This document shows, piece after piece, positions 24,001-45,000 of a stretch of 64,000 nt of DNA. A program made the position numbers. The stretch's first letter is position 1, and every line of letters begins with the position of its first letter. Origin of the DNA: an uncultured cyanobacterium (lineage in GTDB: Bacteria > Cyanobacteriota > Cyanobacteriia > Phormidesmidales > Phormidesmidaceae); the NCBI GenBank assembly GCA_963793265.1, contig CAWBZI010000007.1, positions 96,001 through 160,000 of the forward strand, written 5' to 3'.

Positions 24001-27000
24001 GAAAACGTCAGGAAGGTAAGTTTGTAGAAAGTAAGCTGTTGACCCGCGAGAGTTCTACGCTCGATCAGGTTAGTGGTGTGCTGCAAAGTGCTCCCGACGG
24101 CAGCTTGACTTTTATCGAGCGAGGCGGATTTGACTTTCAGCCGATTACCGTTCAGCTACCGGATGGTGAACGTGTGCCTGTTTTGTTTACGGTGAAGGGA
24201 CTGGTGGCGAATACTCAAGCAGCGATCACAGCACTTACTCCATCTACCCGGCTATCAGGAAGCTTTGACGTACCGCCCTATCGAACCTCTAGCTTTATCG
24301 ATCCAAAGGGTCGTGGGCTTGCGGTGGGTTACGATGCGGCAGTTGGCATTCCTATTCAGGCGGATAGAGACAAGTTTTCTAAGCAAAACAACAAGTCTTT
24401 TGACATGGCGAAAGGACGTATTGTGCTGCAAATAGAAAAAGTGAATCAGAGAACCGGAGAACTTTCGGGTCAGTTCGAGAGTCAGCAGCCTTCGGATACT
24501 GATTTTGGCACGAAAGAAGCCATGACCGTCAAGATTCAAGGGACATTTTACGGACGTGTTGAGCCAGAGATTGCGTAGTTTATATTCATTGAGGGACGTT
24601 TTACCATGATTGGGAAACTAAGCCTAGAACAAGAACTTGAGCTGAAGATTTTGAGCGATCAAGCCCAGCGGCTGTCTCTTGATCAGGCTCAAAGGTATAT
24701 CGTTGAAGTAATGCGGCAAATGATGGTTAGAGACAATCTATTAAGCCATCTATTAACAGAAACCGGGCTTCCTCAAGAACAGTATACGCAGTCTATTATT
24801 TTTCAGGGAAAGTCTTCCTGGTACGAAGGAACTTAAGCAGTTTAAGTTAGATAGCCACAGAGAAGAAAAAACGTAGAGGGGACAATAGCAATGATTCGTG
24901 TTCTTAAAAAGATTCTGGCTAGTGCCGCCGCTTTGTATGCGATTGTAACGGCTTTGATGATAGCGTTTGCCTGGACGAGTAGTGCGATCGCACTTGAAAT
25001 CGACGCCCCCCTTCGCACGGTACCGCTCAATGATACGGGTGAACAAACGACGCTGACCATTGAGCAGATTATGCTCGGACAGCAAAAGTTTAATAGTAGC
25101 TGCGCTCAGTGCCATATAGACGGCAGCACAAAGCCTAATCCCGATGTAGATTTGAGCACTCAAACGCTTGCGCTCGCCACACCTTCGCGCGACAGCGTTA
25201 GCAGCCTGCTGGACTATCTCGATCATCCCACTACTTATGACGGGCTGCGATCGCTAGCCGATCTGCACCCGTCTACGCTGAATCTCGATCTTTTTCCTAG
25301 AATGCAGGGTTTGTCTAGGAGTGATTTGGAGGCGATCGCAGGCTACATTTTAGCGGAGCCTAATATTGTTGGAGAGCGGTGGGGCGGCGGTAAACCCAAG
25401 CGGTAAATGTTATGTACGCTATTCTCCTAACCGCGTTAGTTCTTCTAAAAGTAGAGCTTCGGCTTCGGCATCTGAAAGATTGTCTATGTCTTGAGTTTGT
25501 TCAGTAGAGTCTATGAAGAAGTCAGCCGCTTCAAGAGATGAGATCGGAGGCGCAATGAGCGCTACGAGATAGTCTTTGAGAAGCGATGGCGTTGGGTAGT
25601 CGTAGATGAGGGTGACAGGTAGAGGGCTCTGAAGGTTGGTTTGTAGGCGGTTGCGCAGCTCTACGGCGGTGAGCGAGTCTAGGCCGAGTTCGGTAAAGCT
25701 GCTGCTGAAGTCGGATAGCGGAACAAGATCTGTCCCTAACACTATGGCAATTTGTTGCTGTAGGTGATGCGATATTAGAGCCTGTCGCTCTGGCTGGGTG
25801 GCCTGCTCGATTTTAGTTCTGAAAGCGGTGGGTGCAGCGGATGTTTTCGCAACACTCATTTGTGCTGTGTTGTCGGCAAAGAGCGTGTTACTGTTTGCTA
25901 TGCTTGTCCAGTTTTTGATATCTCCTGGTAGAATGCCGATTTGAGGCGCTTCAGCAGCGTTAATCATGATCTGGCTCAAGAGAGACAGTCCGATTTCAGG
26001 CTCAATTAAAGGAATGTTTGCTTTGTCCAAACGCTGTTTTACGGCTGGATTGTTGGCTAAGTCTGTGCCTGCCCAAGCCGCCCAGTTAATGCTCAGCGCA
26101 GGAAGCTCTAGCTGATGGCGTAGGGTAGCTACGGCGTCTAAAAAGCTGTTAGCGGCGGCGTAGTTTGCCTGTCCAGCCGATCCGAGAAGAGAGGCGGCCG
26201 AGGAGAACATAACGAAGTGATCGAGTGGTAGGCTTCGGGTGAGCTGGTGTAGGTGCCAGGTGCCAGTGACTTTAGCTGACATGGCACGCTCGAAGTGAGG
26301 CCAGGTTTGTTGTGATAGAGCGCTGTCGTCGGTTTGGCCTGCTAGGTGGAAGATTCCTTTGAGCGGATTTGTTGCAGAAAACTCAAGCATATGGGCGAGG
26401 GCTGCTGTTAGAATAGGTAAGTTGGAGAGGTCGGCCTGGATAGTTTGAATAGTGATACCAGACTCGGTGAGCTGTGCGATCGCCTCCTCAGCTTGGGCAG
26501 AAGGCTGTTGTCTTCCTAATAGCGTAATGTGGCGGGCACCTTGACTAGCTAACCATTGGGCGACCTGTAAACCGAGCGCGCCTAAGCCGCCTGTAATGAG
26601 GTAATTTGCGTCGGAGCGAATAATGGATTTTGACTCTATAGCAGGCGGCGTAACTACGACTTTGCCAATATGTTTGGCTTGTTGCATCGTGCGGAAGGCG
26701 TCTATGGCGCGCTCAGCGGTGAATAATTGTAGAGGTAGCGGGCGTAGTTCTGCCTGCTGTAGCTGAGCGACTACGCACTGTAGCATTGATTGAATGAGCT
26801 GCGGCTGGTTATGGGTAATGCTGACAAGATCGACAATGTGATAGCTTACGTCAGGGCGGCTGGCGGACATTTCTTCGGTTGACCAGATGTCTGTTTTGCC
26901 GATTTCTATGAACTGGCCGTTAGGGGCTAGGGTAGAGAGACTTTTAGCGATCGCCTCTCCCGAAAAAGAGTTCAATACAAAATTAACCCCTTCACCGTCT

Positions 27001-42000: not shown

Positions 42001-45000
42001 GAGCTGTTCCATTAAAGTAGGCAAAGAGACTTGGCGAATTTGTGAAAGTGTAAATAAAGCCTCTAGCCGTTCTCCCTCTGCTTGCTCAATCCGCTCAATA
42101 AGCTTCACCAGTTCCTTCTGCTCAGCAGCGGTTATGGTTTCATTATGAATCTTGTCTTGCAATACGGTATGCCGCATCTCTACATCTACTGGCAAGGTGC
42201 AGTTAATTATTTTAAATAGCTCTGTTTCTTGGGTGGATAAGCTAGCTGCCTTGCGCTGGGCCACGAGTAAGCTAATTTTCTCTGCATAAGCCTCAAGCTC
42301 TGGCGTTTCTAGCTGGGCTACGCCTGCAATTAGCTGGTCGAGGTCAATCTTAGAAGTGATTTGTATAGAAGTCATAGGATCTAATTAATGACTTAGTTTA
42401 GCTGCACAGCATATTCCTACTATACGCCTAAGTTAAGTTTACTCCCGCAACTTGATCATAACGTTGTTTATTCAGGGAGGCGATCGCTAATCTTTCCACA
42501 AACAGCAGATATCGCAACGGTGCGTGGAGATGCCAGGTAGTTGTGAGCTGACGGATCGCCACTGCGGCCCTTGAAGTTTCGGTTTGTCGCATAAATGCCG
42601 GTTTCTTTTTCTCCTAACACGCCTCTACCGGCGTTAATACAGGCACCACAGCCCGATTTGAGCACGGTTGCACCTGCCCGTTCTAGCGTATCAAGGTAGC
42701 CTAGCGATTCTGCTTGCTGTCTGACTTCTTGAGAAGCAGGCACGACGAATAAACTGACGGCTGAATCTACGGTTTGTCCTTTTAGCGCAGCGGCAGCTTC
42801 GGCAAGATCGTACAGTTTGCCACCCGTGCAGGAGCCGATGAAGGCTTTGGTGATGGGCACTTTGTCGAGGCGATCAATGGGAACGACGCAATCGGGTTTG
42901 GGTGGGCTAGCAACTTGAGGCTTTAGCTGGCTCAGGTCAAATTGATAAGTGCGTTCGTAGATGGCGTTAGGATCGGCAGTGACTTCTGTGAAAGGCTCAG
43001 ACGTTCTCTCTTTTACATACTGTCGGGTTACGTCATCAACAAGCATAAGACCACACATAGCGCCGCACTCAATGGCCATGTTAGCTAAGGTCATGCGTTC
43101 GTCTATAGGCATTTGATTGATGACGCTGCCGGAAAACTCGATGACCTTGCCAGTAGCACCGTCTGAGCCAAGCTGCCCGAGGATAAAGAGCATCACGTCT
43201 TTAGCGCTGATGTGTGGTGAGAGCTGGCCCAAGAGTTCTATGCGTAGGGTGGCGGGGACTCGTAGCCAGAGGTCGCCCGTGGCGAATATGTTGGCCATAT
43301 CGGTGGTGCCGACGCCTGTAGAGAAGCTGCCGAATGCGCCGTATGTGCAGCTATGGGAGTCTGTGCCTGCGATAATCATACCGGGACGGATGAAGCCTTT
43401 TTCAGGGAGGAGTACGTGGCAGATGCCAGCGGCTTCTCCAGGGGAGATCACGTCGAAGAGGTGACATTTTTGCTGATGGGCAAATTCGACCATTTGCTGA
43501 TGCATTGCGATCGCACCTTCATCAGCCCGGATGTCGTTGATTTGGATGAAGTGATCGGCAACGAGGACGATCTTATCGGGGTTCCAGACGGGCGTAGTGG
43601 CTCCGAAATGCTGATGGAAGAGGTGGGCGACCGGGCCAGCGATCGCATCGTGTGACATAGCCAAATCGACCTGGGCAAAGACGACTTCTCCAGGCTGCAC
43701 GTATGGGTTGTCTGAGGCTTGCGCGAGTAGCTTTTCAGCGACGGTCATGGGGCGCTGGGCGGTGGTGCTTTTGGGTGGGGTGATGCGGCCCTGCTGGCGC
43801 TGCTGGTTGTAGGGAATCAGGCCGCCTGCTTGGGTGATGGCGTCTACTACCGGGTTTTGCTGGGTAGAGCCGATGATTTCTAAGGGCAGGCCAATGTTGA
43901 TGCTATTACGGTAGAAGATTTCGGCAAAGGATTTGGCGCGGATTTTTTGGATGCCTGCGGCTTTGATGGCGATAGGTGCGAATTCTCGGCTAGAGCCGCA
44001 GCCGAAGTTAACCCCGGCTTCGATGATGTCGTATTTGAGTAGGTTACCAGGGCCGATCAGGTGCTCGAAGGCGTAGTGGGCGAGATGATCGGGATCGGCG
44101 CTAGTGCCTCTTTGGGCGGGGATGATGTCGTCGGTGTTTATGTTGTCTCCTAGATAAAGCGGGGGCTGAGGCATGGTGTCGGGTTGTTTGTGGGCTATAG
44201 AATTGTAGGAGAGATTGGGGAAATACCGGAAATACTATGGTTGGAAGAGTGGCTGAAAGAGTGGCTGAAAGAGATATCTATGATGTGGTGATTGTGGGCG
44301 GCGGGGTGTGCGGGACAGCGCTACTTTATAGCCTGAGCTGCTATACGAATGTGGGCAAGATGGCGCTGATTGAGAAGAATGATGAGGTGGCCCTTGTTAA
44401 TTCTAGGCAGACGAGTAATAGCCAAACGCTGCATTTTGGCGATATTGAGACGAACTATAGCCTTGAGAAGGCGACAAAGGTGAATCGGGCGGCTTCGATG
44501 GTGAAGCGCTATGTGCTGGCGCATGATCCTGAGCAGGTGAGCTATACGAAGTATCACAAGATGGTGCTGGCGGTGGGTGAGGAAGAGGCGGATTTTTTAC
44601 GGGTTCGCTATGAGGATTTTAAGGGGCTGTTTCCCGATTTGAAGCTGATTAAGCGGGCGGAGATTGCTGAGGTGGAGCCGAATGTGGTGCTTGGGCGAGA
44701 TGAGGATGAGGAACTGCTGGCGCTGTCTACGCCGGATGGGTATGCGATTGACTATCAGGCGTTGGCTCAATCTTTTGTGGCGCGTTCGGTGGAGCGGATA
44801 GCGGCTGAGGAGCGATCGCTGGATTTGATGATGGGGACGAAGGTGCGGGCGATTGAGGAGCGGGGCGATCGCTACGTAATCACGATGGCGAACGGTAAGA
44901 CAATAGAGTCGCGGGTGGTGGCGGTGACGAGTGGGGCGCATAGCCTGATGTATGCAAAGGCGTTGGGCTATGGGCAGGACTATGCGCTGCTGAGTGCGGC

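What a model noticed while it worked through the whole genome (the two positions that open the first line are those of the whole stretch)
25419..44174. Homophenylalanine-type (HphA/CD/B) keto-acid elongation trio and a McyG-type loading module feed the sphingoid PKS: pred [...]
g04943 (malate-analogue synthase), g04951 (fused aconitase) and g04999 (isopropylmalate-type dehydrogenase) form a 2-oxo-acid elongation set of the homophenylalanine type, but here they serve a lipid PKS rather than a peptide. The divergent PKS g04942/41 starts with a McyG-type phenylpropanoid adenylation-carrier didomain, so the predicted starter is an elongated aryl acid and the product an aryl-tailed sphingoid base.
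Evidence so far: Homologues of g04943 at about 63% are labelled benzylmalate synthase by JGI. Best PDB match of the g04942 loader is McyG A-PCP (E 9e-146), then a keto-acid-selecting A domain entry 6ULW. Synthase, aconitase, oxoamine domain and reductase each occur in 19 of 173 family genomes and all four in the same 17. Of 19 cyanobacterial aconitase loci mapped, 11 have the synthase adjacent and 9 the PKS next; the dehydrogenase directly follows the PKS-oxoamine gene in 9 of 25 loci; a Spirulina contig and G042 hold trio and PKS together. The genome has no large peptide synthetase that would use homophenylalanine.
(Added by a program. Inside this text positions count along the whole contig: contig position 96,001 is position 1 of the stretch shown here. 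"Call 12" and the like, gene names such as g00115 and contig names such as C1 are that model's own, and its searches are not shown. The text may have been shortened before it was handed on; [...] marks where a part breaks off. The agent that wrote the report below was given it as the finding of a first reader that could run no searches.)

Follow-up and report, generated by a model that had tools for sequence, protein, structure and literature searches.

The report
Keto-acid elongation primes cyanobacterial amino-lipid synthase
Some cyanobacteria appear to have taken the three enzymes that normally lengthen phenylalanine for peptide products and wired them to a lipid-building assembly line, which would probably give a phenyl-tipped sphingolipid-like molecule; no product has been detected yet.

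Summary
The genes are real and belong together. The synthase and fused aconitase in the window, and a dehydrogenase 68 kb further on, are HphA/CD/B-family enzymes. They form their own branch, tied to a keto-acid-loading PKS rather than to peptide synthetases. One complete relative (G017) holds trio, loader PKS, PKS-oxoamine synthase and reductase in one block and has no condensation domain. The PKS split is a one-base frameshift absent from two close-strain contigs.

New here: the loader's pocket carries three glycines in all 32 trio-linked copies, whereas three loaders from trio-less clusters have a narrower pocket. This fits loading of the elongated 2-oxo acid.

Three corrections. The McyG match and the JGI label do not show an aryl substrate. 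The loader PKS docks onto a stand-alone KS protein, not onto the PKS-oxoamine synthase. This lineage also has a second, fatty-acid-primed PKS.

An aryl starter is the best reading (about 0.65); an aryl-tailed sphingoid base specifically about 0.4. No substrate or product has been tested. It is a new variant built from known parts.

The parts
33868..35088 (+). HphA-family 2-substituted-malate synthase (406 aa); pocket residues S71/C154/A156/L183/S239 at HphA positions 73/157/159/186/242
42468..44174 (-). HphCD-type fused aconitase (small subunit then large; SCTGG and CGAC iron-sulfur motifs intact), about 70% identical to NRPS-linked HphCD-type proteins. The third enzyme of the trio, the HphB-type dehydrogenase, is outside the window at C7:208136-209191
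32057..33736 (-). 2-keto-acid-type adenylation (loader) domain; Val in place of Asp235, Gly-Met motif, code VAVWGGGSGK
31826..32017 (-). Loading carrier (T) domain, GGNSL motif
30449..31768 (-). KS domain with intact C/H/H triad; groups with the KS of cryptophycin CrpA
30176..30200 (-). One-base frameshift in the KS-AT linker that splits the PKS in this assembly; probably an assembly error
25419..30137 (-). AT(malonyl)-DH-ER-KR-ACP, catalytic motifs intact, ending in a class 2-type C-terminal docking helix (25422-25490). Downstream partners are outside the window: KS-only, SRPBCC and reductase at C4:381959-385404; PKS-AOS (2647 aa) at C7:200193-208136 with hydrolase, GT39-like, GT4 and PagL-like genes; GT-C-like, FAAL, FAAL-PKS and GT2 at C2:279892-293506
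33737..33867 (.). 131-bp spacer between the divergent loader PKS and synthase; the head-to-head arrangement is conserved

Best explanation
The window holds the front end of a dispersed amino-lipid gene cluster. (1) Synthase, aconitase and dehydrogenase lengthen a 2-oxo acid by one CH2, most likely phenylpyruvate to 2-oxo-4-phenylbutanoate (family shown; substrate inferred). (2) The keto acid is not transaminated for a peptide but adenylated by the loader, whose pocket is widened by three glycines (inferred from co-variation). (3) By analogy with McyG, CrpA and barbamide one carbon is lost, and a fully reducing module adds one malonyl unit, giving about a 5-phenylpentanoyl chain (inferred). (4) The chain passes by class 2 docking to a stand-alone KS, which relays or extends it onto the PKS-AOS protein (docking anatomy shown; transfer inferred). 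(5) PKS-AOS extends it, probably iteratively, and releases it by condensation with a small amino acid; the reductase gives a 2-amino-3-ol, which glycosyltransferases decorate (inferred from Pseudomonas SgaABC). Predicted product: an omega-phenyl sphingoid-like glycolipid.
For: Loader PKS divergent from the synthase in 14 of 15 cyanobacterial loci, 17 of 18 family relatives and 2 of 13 phylum hits. All 15 synthase-bearing family genomes that are at least 90% complete have the fused AOS ortholog at 70% identity or more. G017 (one contig, 100% complete) has the whole set in one block of about 35 kb; G017 and G158 have no condensation domain. 5 of 5 further genomes reached from loci L013, L015, L016, L018 and L026 have PKS-AOS, dehydrogenase and KS-only. 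G540 has lost the parts together. PKS-linked synthases form one clade (97/98) beside NRPS-linked HphA, with small Ser at position 73 and HphA's A159 and S242 in 34 of 34 rows; wild-type HphA is 240- to 3300-fold poorer than IPMS on branched keto acids (PMC12961565). The dehydrogenase shares a 13-residue loop deletion with HphB-type proteins. Loader code (V/I)AVWGGGSG in 32 of 32 trio-linked rows, against IGSWLA(G/A)SGK in 3 loaders of trio-less clusters and VGVWVAASGK in McyG and CrpA. The loader KS groups with CrpA and the KS-only with CrpB; their termini match the CrpA/CrpB and CurL docking sequences.
Against: No substrate, product or expression data. Position 157 is Cys in 30 of 34 PKS-linked synthases and in 0 of 10 NRPS-linked ones, so the substrate may have changed. 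The loader is equally close to aliphatic StsA, and a widened pocket also fits a longer aliphatic chain. PKS-AOS lacks a docking domain, so the relay is hypothetical. A FAAL-primed reducing PKS accompanies the cluster in 16 of 19 synthase-bearing family genomes. The AOS amino-acid substrate is unresolved: it is below all NCBIfam cut-offs, with BioF/Kbl and SPT scoring alike. The gene is split in this assembly and in 4 other loci (L025, L104, L108, L109).
Confidence: 0.4

Rival explanations
1. Same architecture, but the trio lengthens an aliphatic 2-oxo acid (from Leu, Ile, Met or a linear acid, perhaps over several rounds), giving a branched or methylthio-tailed lipid.
For: Cys157 is specific to the PKS-linked clade. 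The loader ties between McyG and StsA. One change at position 73 opens HphA to branched substrates (PMC12961565). Loaders of trio-less clusters have Leu299, as does the ketoisocaproate-activating CrpD module 2, so the system may already use aliphatic starters.
Against: Position 73 is small (Ser) in 34 of 34 rows, not the Leu of IPMS. Ser73 also occurs in 4 of 10 NRPS-linked HphA rows. McyG's ring-contacting W272, G335 and S341 are kept, though StsA keeps them too.
Confidence: 0.25
2. The aryl chain is made as proposed but becomes the N- or O-acyl partner (or a second chain joined by the KS-only protein); the amino-alcohol backbone is built by PKS-AOS from malonyl units or from the FAAL-primed chain.
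For: Docking links the loader PKS to KS-only, not to PKS-AOS. PKS-AOS begins directly with its KS, as a self-priming iterative enzyme would. FAAL-PKS is physically in the cluster in G514 and G522. Two hydrolase-fold genes and a PagL-like gene could move acyl chains.
Against: KS-only keeps a full C/H/H triad and groups with the elongating KS domains of CrpB. G017, G158, G570, G014 and G202 have no full-length FAAL-PKS ortholog, so there the loader PKS is the only primed chain seen in the cluster.
Confidence: 0.2
3. Trio and loader PKS make a separate small product (or free homophenylalanine), and the AOS lipid pathway merely co-occurs.
For: The parts are scattered over four places in G000 and over several in G571-G575. 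19 of 22 AOS-positive phylum genomes lack the PKS-type synthase.
Against: The dehydrogenase directly follows PKS-AOS in 10 of 15 family genomes. The loader PKS has no release domain. All 5 fused PKS-AOS genes in the phylum sample come with a keto-acid loader PKS. The set is one block in G017.
Confidence: 0.07
4. The trio is a homocitrate or leucine-type primary pathway (AksA/D/F-like).
For: Best library hits are NifV, archaeal LEU1 and the HacA family; best PDB hit of the synthase is homocitrate synthase 6KTQ.
Against: Pocket S/C/A/L/S matches neither HCS (H/R/T/S/H) nor IPMS (L/E/S/N/E). The synthase scores far below those cut-offs. The genome has separate LeuA-, LeuB-, LeuC/D- and NifV-like genes.
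Confidence: 0.03
5. Not exclusive of the above: in this strain the loader PKS is a true pseudogene and the pathway is decaying.
For: Frameshift. The loader PKS is separated from its usual downstream KS-only gene. The close relative G540 shows real decay.
Against: Close-strain contigs in 2 of 4 runs (depth 4.9 and 3.5; the other two runs do not bridge the site) carry the extra base. All catalytic motifs are intact and all partner genes are retained.
Confidence: 0.12

Closest known systems
HphA/HphCD/HphB homologation pathway (Nostoc punctiforme; anabaenopeptin and spumigin clusters)
   Same: Same three enzyme families: synthase 53-58%, dehydrogenase 60-65%, aconitase about 70% identical to NRPS-linked copies; shared A159/S242 and the dehydrogenase loop deletion.
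   Different: Separate clade with Cys157; tied to a PKS loader; occurs in genomes with no condensation domain; the keto acid, not the amino acid, is the predicted end product.
McyG / CrpA-CrpB starter module (microcystin, cryptophycin); StsA-type keto-acid A domains
   Same: A-T-KS architecture, Val at 235, Gly-Met motif, KS in the CrpA clade, CrpA/CrpB-type docking pair.
   Different: Pocket has Gly at 299, 301 and 322 (McyG and CrpA: V/A/A); the module is fully reducing; the downstream partner is cut down to a lone KS; release is by an oxoamine synthase.
Pseudomonas fluorescens SgaABC PKS-derived sphingolipids (PMC12134224)
   Same: Reducing type I PKS plus AOS plus KDS-reductase-like SDR.
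   Different: AOS is fused to the PKS here; there is an extra loader module, a lone KS, a homologation trio, GT4/GT-C glycosyltransferases and a PagL-like gene. AOS substrate untested; no SgaB sequence was compared.
Orphan PKS cluster on Planktothrix agardhii NIVA-CYA126/8 plasmid p3 (also G014, G202)
   Same: Loader PKS, KS-only, SRPBCC, GT4, GT39, hydrolase and PKS-AOS.
   Different: No trio in the cluster (G014 and G202 lack synthase and aconitase genome-wide; the P. agardhii chromosome was not searched); narrower loader pocket; product unknown.

Membership tests
HphA (benzylmalate synthase) | Over 50% identity to HphA-type proteins and same clade, apart from IPMS and HCS | tested here: met
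   53-58% to 10 NRPS-linked homologs; sister clade, 97/98. The N. punctiforme sequence itself was not in hand; its motifs were read from primers.
HphA (benzylmalate synthase) | Pocket A73/D157/A159/M186/S242 | tested here: inconclusive
   S/C/A/L/S: the two conserved positions match, the three variable ones differ; Cys157 in 0 of 10 NRPS-linked rows.
HphA (benzylmalate synthase) | Condenses phenylpyruvate with acetyl-CoA | not testable with these tools
   Needs an enzyme assay.
hphABCD cluster | Fused aconitase and HphB-type dehydrogenase present | tested here: met
hphABCD cluster | Supplies homo-amino acids to an NRPS | tested here: not met
   Neighbour is a PKS; no condensation domain in G017 or G158; one in G000, in a protein whose A domains look Pro- and Gly-like (codes recalled).
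Homocitrate / isopropylmalate synthase | H/R/T/S/H or L/E/S/N/E pocket | tested here: not met
2-keto-acid-activating A domain (KAL) | Hydrophobic residue at Asp235 and Gly-Met motif | tested here: met
   V225 and GYGMSE; fold nearest 4R0M and 6ULW.
McyG/CrpA phenylpropanoid loader | Pocket code VGVWVAASGK | tested here: not met
   VAVWGGGSGK, four differences.
McyG/CrpA phenylpropanoid loader | A-T followed by a KS of the CrpA clade; one-carbon excision | tested here: inconclusive
   Architecture and KS clade met (98/96); excision cannot be tested.
SgaABC-type sphingolipid PKS | Reducing PKS, AOS and KDS-reductase-like SDR | tested here: met
   The SDR's KDSR identity rests on context and recalled motifs, not on a family hit.
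SgaABC-type sphingolipid PKS | AOS uses L-serine and the product is a sphinganine | tested here: inconclusive
   SPT, BioF and Kbl score alike, all below cut-off.
Class 2 PKS docking pair | C-terminal helix on the loader PKS and N-terminal coiled coil on the acceptor KS | tested here: met
   Conserved in the 19 C-termini aligned (one further, split row had none) and in 11 relatives' KS-only N-termini; best PDB hit CurL; absent from 10 of 10 PKS-AOS N-termini. Sequence only; binding was not modelled.

The most novel reading that the evidence does not exclude
Cyanobacteria have a family of PKS-made sphingoid-like glycolipids whose tail is set by an exchangeable keto-acid loader. One branch recruited the homophenylalanine trio and widened the loader pocket to make omega-phenyl long-chain bases, handed over through a lone docking KS. 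This would be an aryl-tipped sphingoid lipid class and a use of amino-acid homologation to prime a polyketide, neither found in the papers searched.
Probability: 0.38. Interest if true: 0.82.

Novelty: new variant of a known kind. Interest (0 to 1): 0.62.

Why it matters
Sphingolipids in cyanobacteria are known from two isolated reports with no genetic basis (PMC8895605). This cluster family gives a candidate pathway and a sharp, labelled-precursor prediction. It would extend the Hph homologation enzymes from peptides to lipid priming. It offers a natural pair (with and without trio, wide and narrow pocket) for learning keto-acid loader specificity. The one-carbon loss at McyG/CrpA/barbamide-type loaders was described as of unknown mechanism (PMC3252866, 2011). 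A single, fully reducing module of the same KS clade is a simpler system in which to test it than microcystin or cryptophycin synthetase.

Tried and rejected
Complex prediction of the docking pair was not available, so binding is unmodelled. No RNA holder was listed for the stretch. JGI 'benzylmalate synthase' labels were rejected as evidence: 10 of 10 fall in the uncharacterised clade. The McyG best hit was rejected as evidence for an aryl substrate. Homocitrate/Aks route rejected on pocket residues. The A-T-TE protein at C7:59400 and the A-T-C-A-MT protein on C2 were considered as other consumers; both keep Asp235 and so take amino acids. The CHAT-TIR/WD40 pair inside the reported interval was rejected as part of the system: not seen between synthase and aconitase in the 15 relatives where these are adjacent. 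The structure model (mean pLDDT 79.6) confirmed the fold but gave no pocket measurement. Three look-ups of earlier findings returned nothing. Paper searches for a described hph-primed PKS or aryl sphingoid listed none; the library lacks most subscription papers. Whether the P. agardhii plasmid cluster is one of the orphan PNL clusters could not be settled from the passages read; their supplements were not opened.

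
Full report
OBSERVATION. The window is G000 C7:96001-160000 of a 5.68-Mb cyanobacterial genome. Positions 1-25406 hold a photosystem and phycobilisome block. The reported interval holds a PKS in two ORFs (A-T-KS, 33736-30089; AT-DH-ER-KR-ACP, 30137-25419), a divergent HMGL-like synthase (33868-35088), an unrelated CHAT-TIR/WD40 pair, an SDR and a fused aconitase (44174-42468). 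The dehydrogenase is outside the window (C7:208136-209191), directly after a 2647-aa KS-AT-DH-ER-KR-ACP-oxoamine synthase (PKS-AOS) gene (C7:200193-208136). All catalytic motifs checked are intact. The PKS split is a one-base frameshift in the KS-AT linker. Close-strain contigs in 2 of 4 runs carry one more base behind 30187, each at depth under 5; the other two runs do not bridge the site. Most relatives have one ORF of about 2,500-3,000 aa, but four loci are split at other places. An assembly error is likelier than a lesion, not proven.

THE GENES BELONG TOGETHER. The synthase occurs in 19 of 173 family genomes, the aconitase in 19, the AOS domain in 19 and the dehydrogenase in 15. All 15 dehydrogenase genomes have the other parts, and in 10 of them it directly follows PKS-AOS. 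Sixteen of the 19 synthase genomes have the fused AOS ortholog; the three without are 79-86% complete. The loader PKS is divergent from the synthase in 17 of 18 family relatives (the 18th contig ends there) and in 14 of 15 cyanobacterial loci from the genome collection. One locus occurs in both sets, and kin are not independent. In a phylum sample 14 of 401 genomes have the synthase. Of the 13 others, 10 lie beside large NRPS-type genes (condensation domains confirmed by Pfam in the 4 of 10 loci scanned), 2 beside the loader PKS and 1 on a 2.9-kb contig. G017, a single-contig genome, has aconitase, dehydrogenase, hydrolase, two GT39-like genes, GT4, a PagL-like gene, PKS-AOS, synthase, loader PKS, KS-only, SRPBCC, reductase and a GT-C-like gene in one block. 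G017 and G158 have no condensation domain; the other 3 of 5 genomes tested do. Five of 5 genomes reached from loci L013, L015, L016, L018 and L026 have fused PKS-AOS, dehydrogenase and KS-only, scattered. G540 keeps a truncated loader and a broken synthase, and no aconitase, dehydrogenase or AOS ortholog was found in it. In G000 the cluster is in four pieces on three contigs.

WHAT THE TRIO IS. PMC12961565 (parts 1-4 of 6 and its supplement read) names five pocket positions: HphA A73/D157/A159/M186/S242, HCS H/R/T/S/H, IPMS L/E/S/N/E. The window enzyme has S/C/A/L/S. In 34 PKS-labelled rows (one, L106, labelled by kinship because its contig ends; one duplicate dropped) position 73 is Ser, 159 Ala and 242 Ser in all, and 157 is Cys in 30. 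In 10 NRPS-linked rows 157 is D, E, N, G or K, and 73 is Ser in 4. The PKS rows form one clade, 97/98. The dehydrogenase shares a 13-residue deletion of the LeuB loop with 3 of 3 NRPS-linked copies. So the trio is Hph-family and not homocitrate or leucine biosynthesis, but it is a branch of its own. The ten listed proteins that JGI labels benzylmalate synthase and that I placed all fall inside that branch, so the label adds nothing. The reviews read (passages of PMC8402340 and PMC6562525) describe hph genes only as suppliers of peptide synthetases.

THE LOADER. It has Val at the Asp235 position and the Gly-Met motif of keto-acid-activating domains (passages of PMC11253843 and PMC13643306). With its carrier it hits McyG best. 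Alone it ties between McyG and the ketoisocaproate-selecting StsA, and the model's fold does the same. The informative result is the pocket. All 32 trio-linked loaders aligned (three loci without a full A domain left out) read (V/I)-A-V-W-G-G-G-S-G at only 48-73% identity to the window copy. McyG and CrpA read VGVWVAASGK, CrpD module 2 VAIFLGSSGK and StsA IGVWIGASAK (positions assigned by my alignment to the GrsA scheme). The phylum sample holds a natural control. Of 22 AOS-positive genomes of 401, five have the fused PKS-AOS. Three have the PKS-type synthase. Two (G014, G202) lack synthase and aconitase yet keep a loader PKS, as does a plasmid of Planktothrix agardhii. These three loaders read IGSWLA(G/A)SGK. 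A wide, glycine-lined pocket thus goes with the trio, which fits loading of a lengthened keto acid. The two pocket types are each one clade, so this is one contrast, not many. Of the 17 non-fused AOS genomes I mapped 13; 11 have a FAAL nearby and none a keto-acid loader.

WHERE THE CHAIN GOES. The loader PKS has no release domain. It ends in a conserved helix like the end of CrpA. The gene that follows it in most family relatives is a KS without AT or ACP. It has an intact triad and an N-terminus like CrpB and CurL, the class 2 docking type (passages of PMC9113145). Its KS groups with CrpB (99/99) and the loader's KS with CrpA (98/96). PKS-AOS starts directly with its KS in 10 of 10 copies. 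A relay through KS-only is my inference. A FAAL-ACP-KS-AT-DH-ER-KR-ACP ortholog (68% or more) is present in 16 of the 19 synthase-bearing family genomes and in no other family genome at that identity. It is physically linked in G514 and G522 and not found full-length in G017, G158, G570, G014 or G202. It supplies a second chain in this lineage and keeps open which chain becomes the base.

MECHANISM, WITH ODDS. The trio feeds the loader: about 0.9. The substrate is aromatic: about 0.65, resting on the small residue at 73, the family and the widened pocket, against Cys157 and the StsA tie. The chain ends in the AOS-made backbone rather than in an acyl partner: about 0.65. Together about 0.4. One-carbon loss is assumed from McyG, CrpA and barbamide (passages of PMC3252866 and PMC11209926). 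Iteration and serine use are assumed from SgaABC (passages of PMC12134224); the AOS substrate is unresolved.

NOVELTY. Each part is of a known kind. I found no paper describing hph genes priming a PKS, this cluster family's product, or an aryl sphingoid base (searches; open-access library only; passages of PMC4247773, PMC6784222, PMC9366434, PMC5259702 and PMC8895605 read). The primary papers on HphABCD, McyG, StsA and the cryptophycin cluster were not read and are cited through these; the names CrpA, CrpB and CrpD for the ATCC 53789 plasmid genes are my assignment from recall and domain order. Verdict: a new variant of a known kind, well supported as a system, untested as chemistry. Interest 0.62.

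Noticed in passing
window 1-25406: Block of divergent photosystem I/II, phycobilisome and two-component genes of the far-red light photoacclimation type (name recalled); it ends 12 bp from the PKS stop codon, and no other loader locus fetched showed this neighbourhood.
   Followed up: no
window 35669-40672 (+): CHAT-TIR-AAA_35 gene followed by an AAA-coiled-coil-WD40 gene with near-identical tandem repeats, inserted between synthase and aconitase; only weak PADLOC hits.
   Followed up: partly
G000 C7:183136-191162 (L011): pPIWI_RE three-gene module (REase, helicase-Z, pPIWI_RE apparently in two ORFs) just upstream of the PKS-AOS block.
   Followed up: no
L027:5018-6205: An uncultured Methanosarcinales archaeon encodes a 44%-identical synthase with an HphA-like pocket (A/D/A/L/S) and no trio or PKS nearby.
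   Followed up: partly
L137 (G448 C32:2259000-2278999): A second AOS locus with FAAL-PKS, inositol-1-phosphate synthase, acyl-CoA dehydrogenase and two desaturases, suggesting an inositol-sphingolipid-like pathway.
   Followed up: no
L121, L123-L131, L135: FAAL-primed AOS loci, including FAAL-ACP-AOS fusions with an adjacent reductase, occur across several cyanobacterial families.
   Followed up: partly
L184:1287-3199: On the P. agardhii plasmid the KS-only gene is split into two ORFs and is not annotated.
   Followed up: no
G000 C7:59400-62327; C2:393115-399024; C4:80303-87752; C6:684747-696436: Other orphan biosynthetic genes: A-T-TE; A-T-C-A-MT lacking a final carrier; FAAL-ACP, P450, TauD and KS-ACP-TE; FAAL, KS and TubC_N with SDRs.
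   Followed up: partly
L146, L147: Stand-alone keto-acid A-KR-T-TE proteins in family genomes, with pocket VGVWLVAAAK.
   Followed up: no
window 57633-62455 (-): Two ORFs (400 and 1185 aa) with no Pfam match; a weak CARF hit for the first.
   Followed up: no
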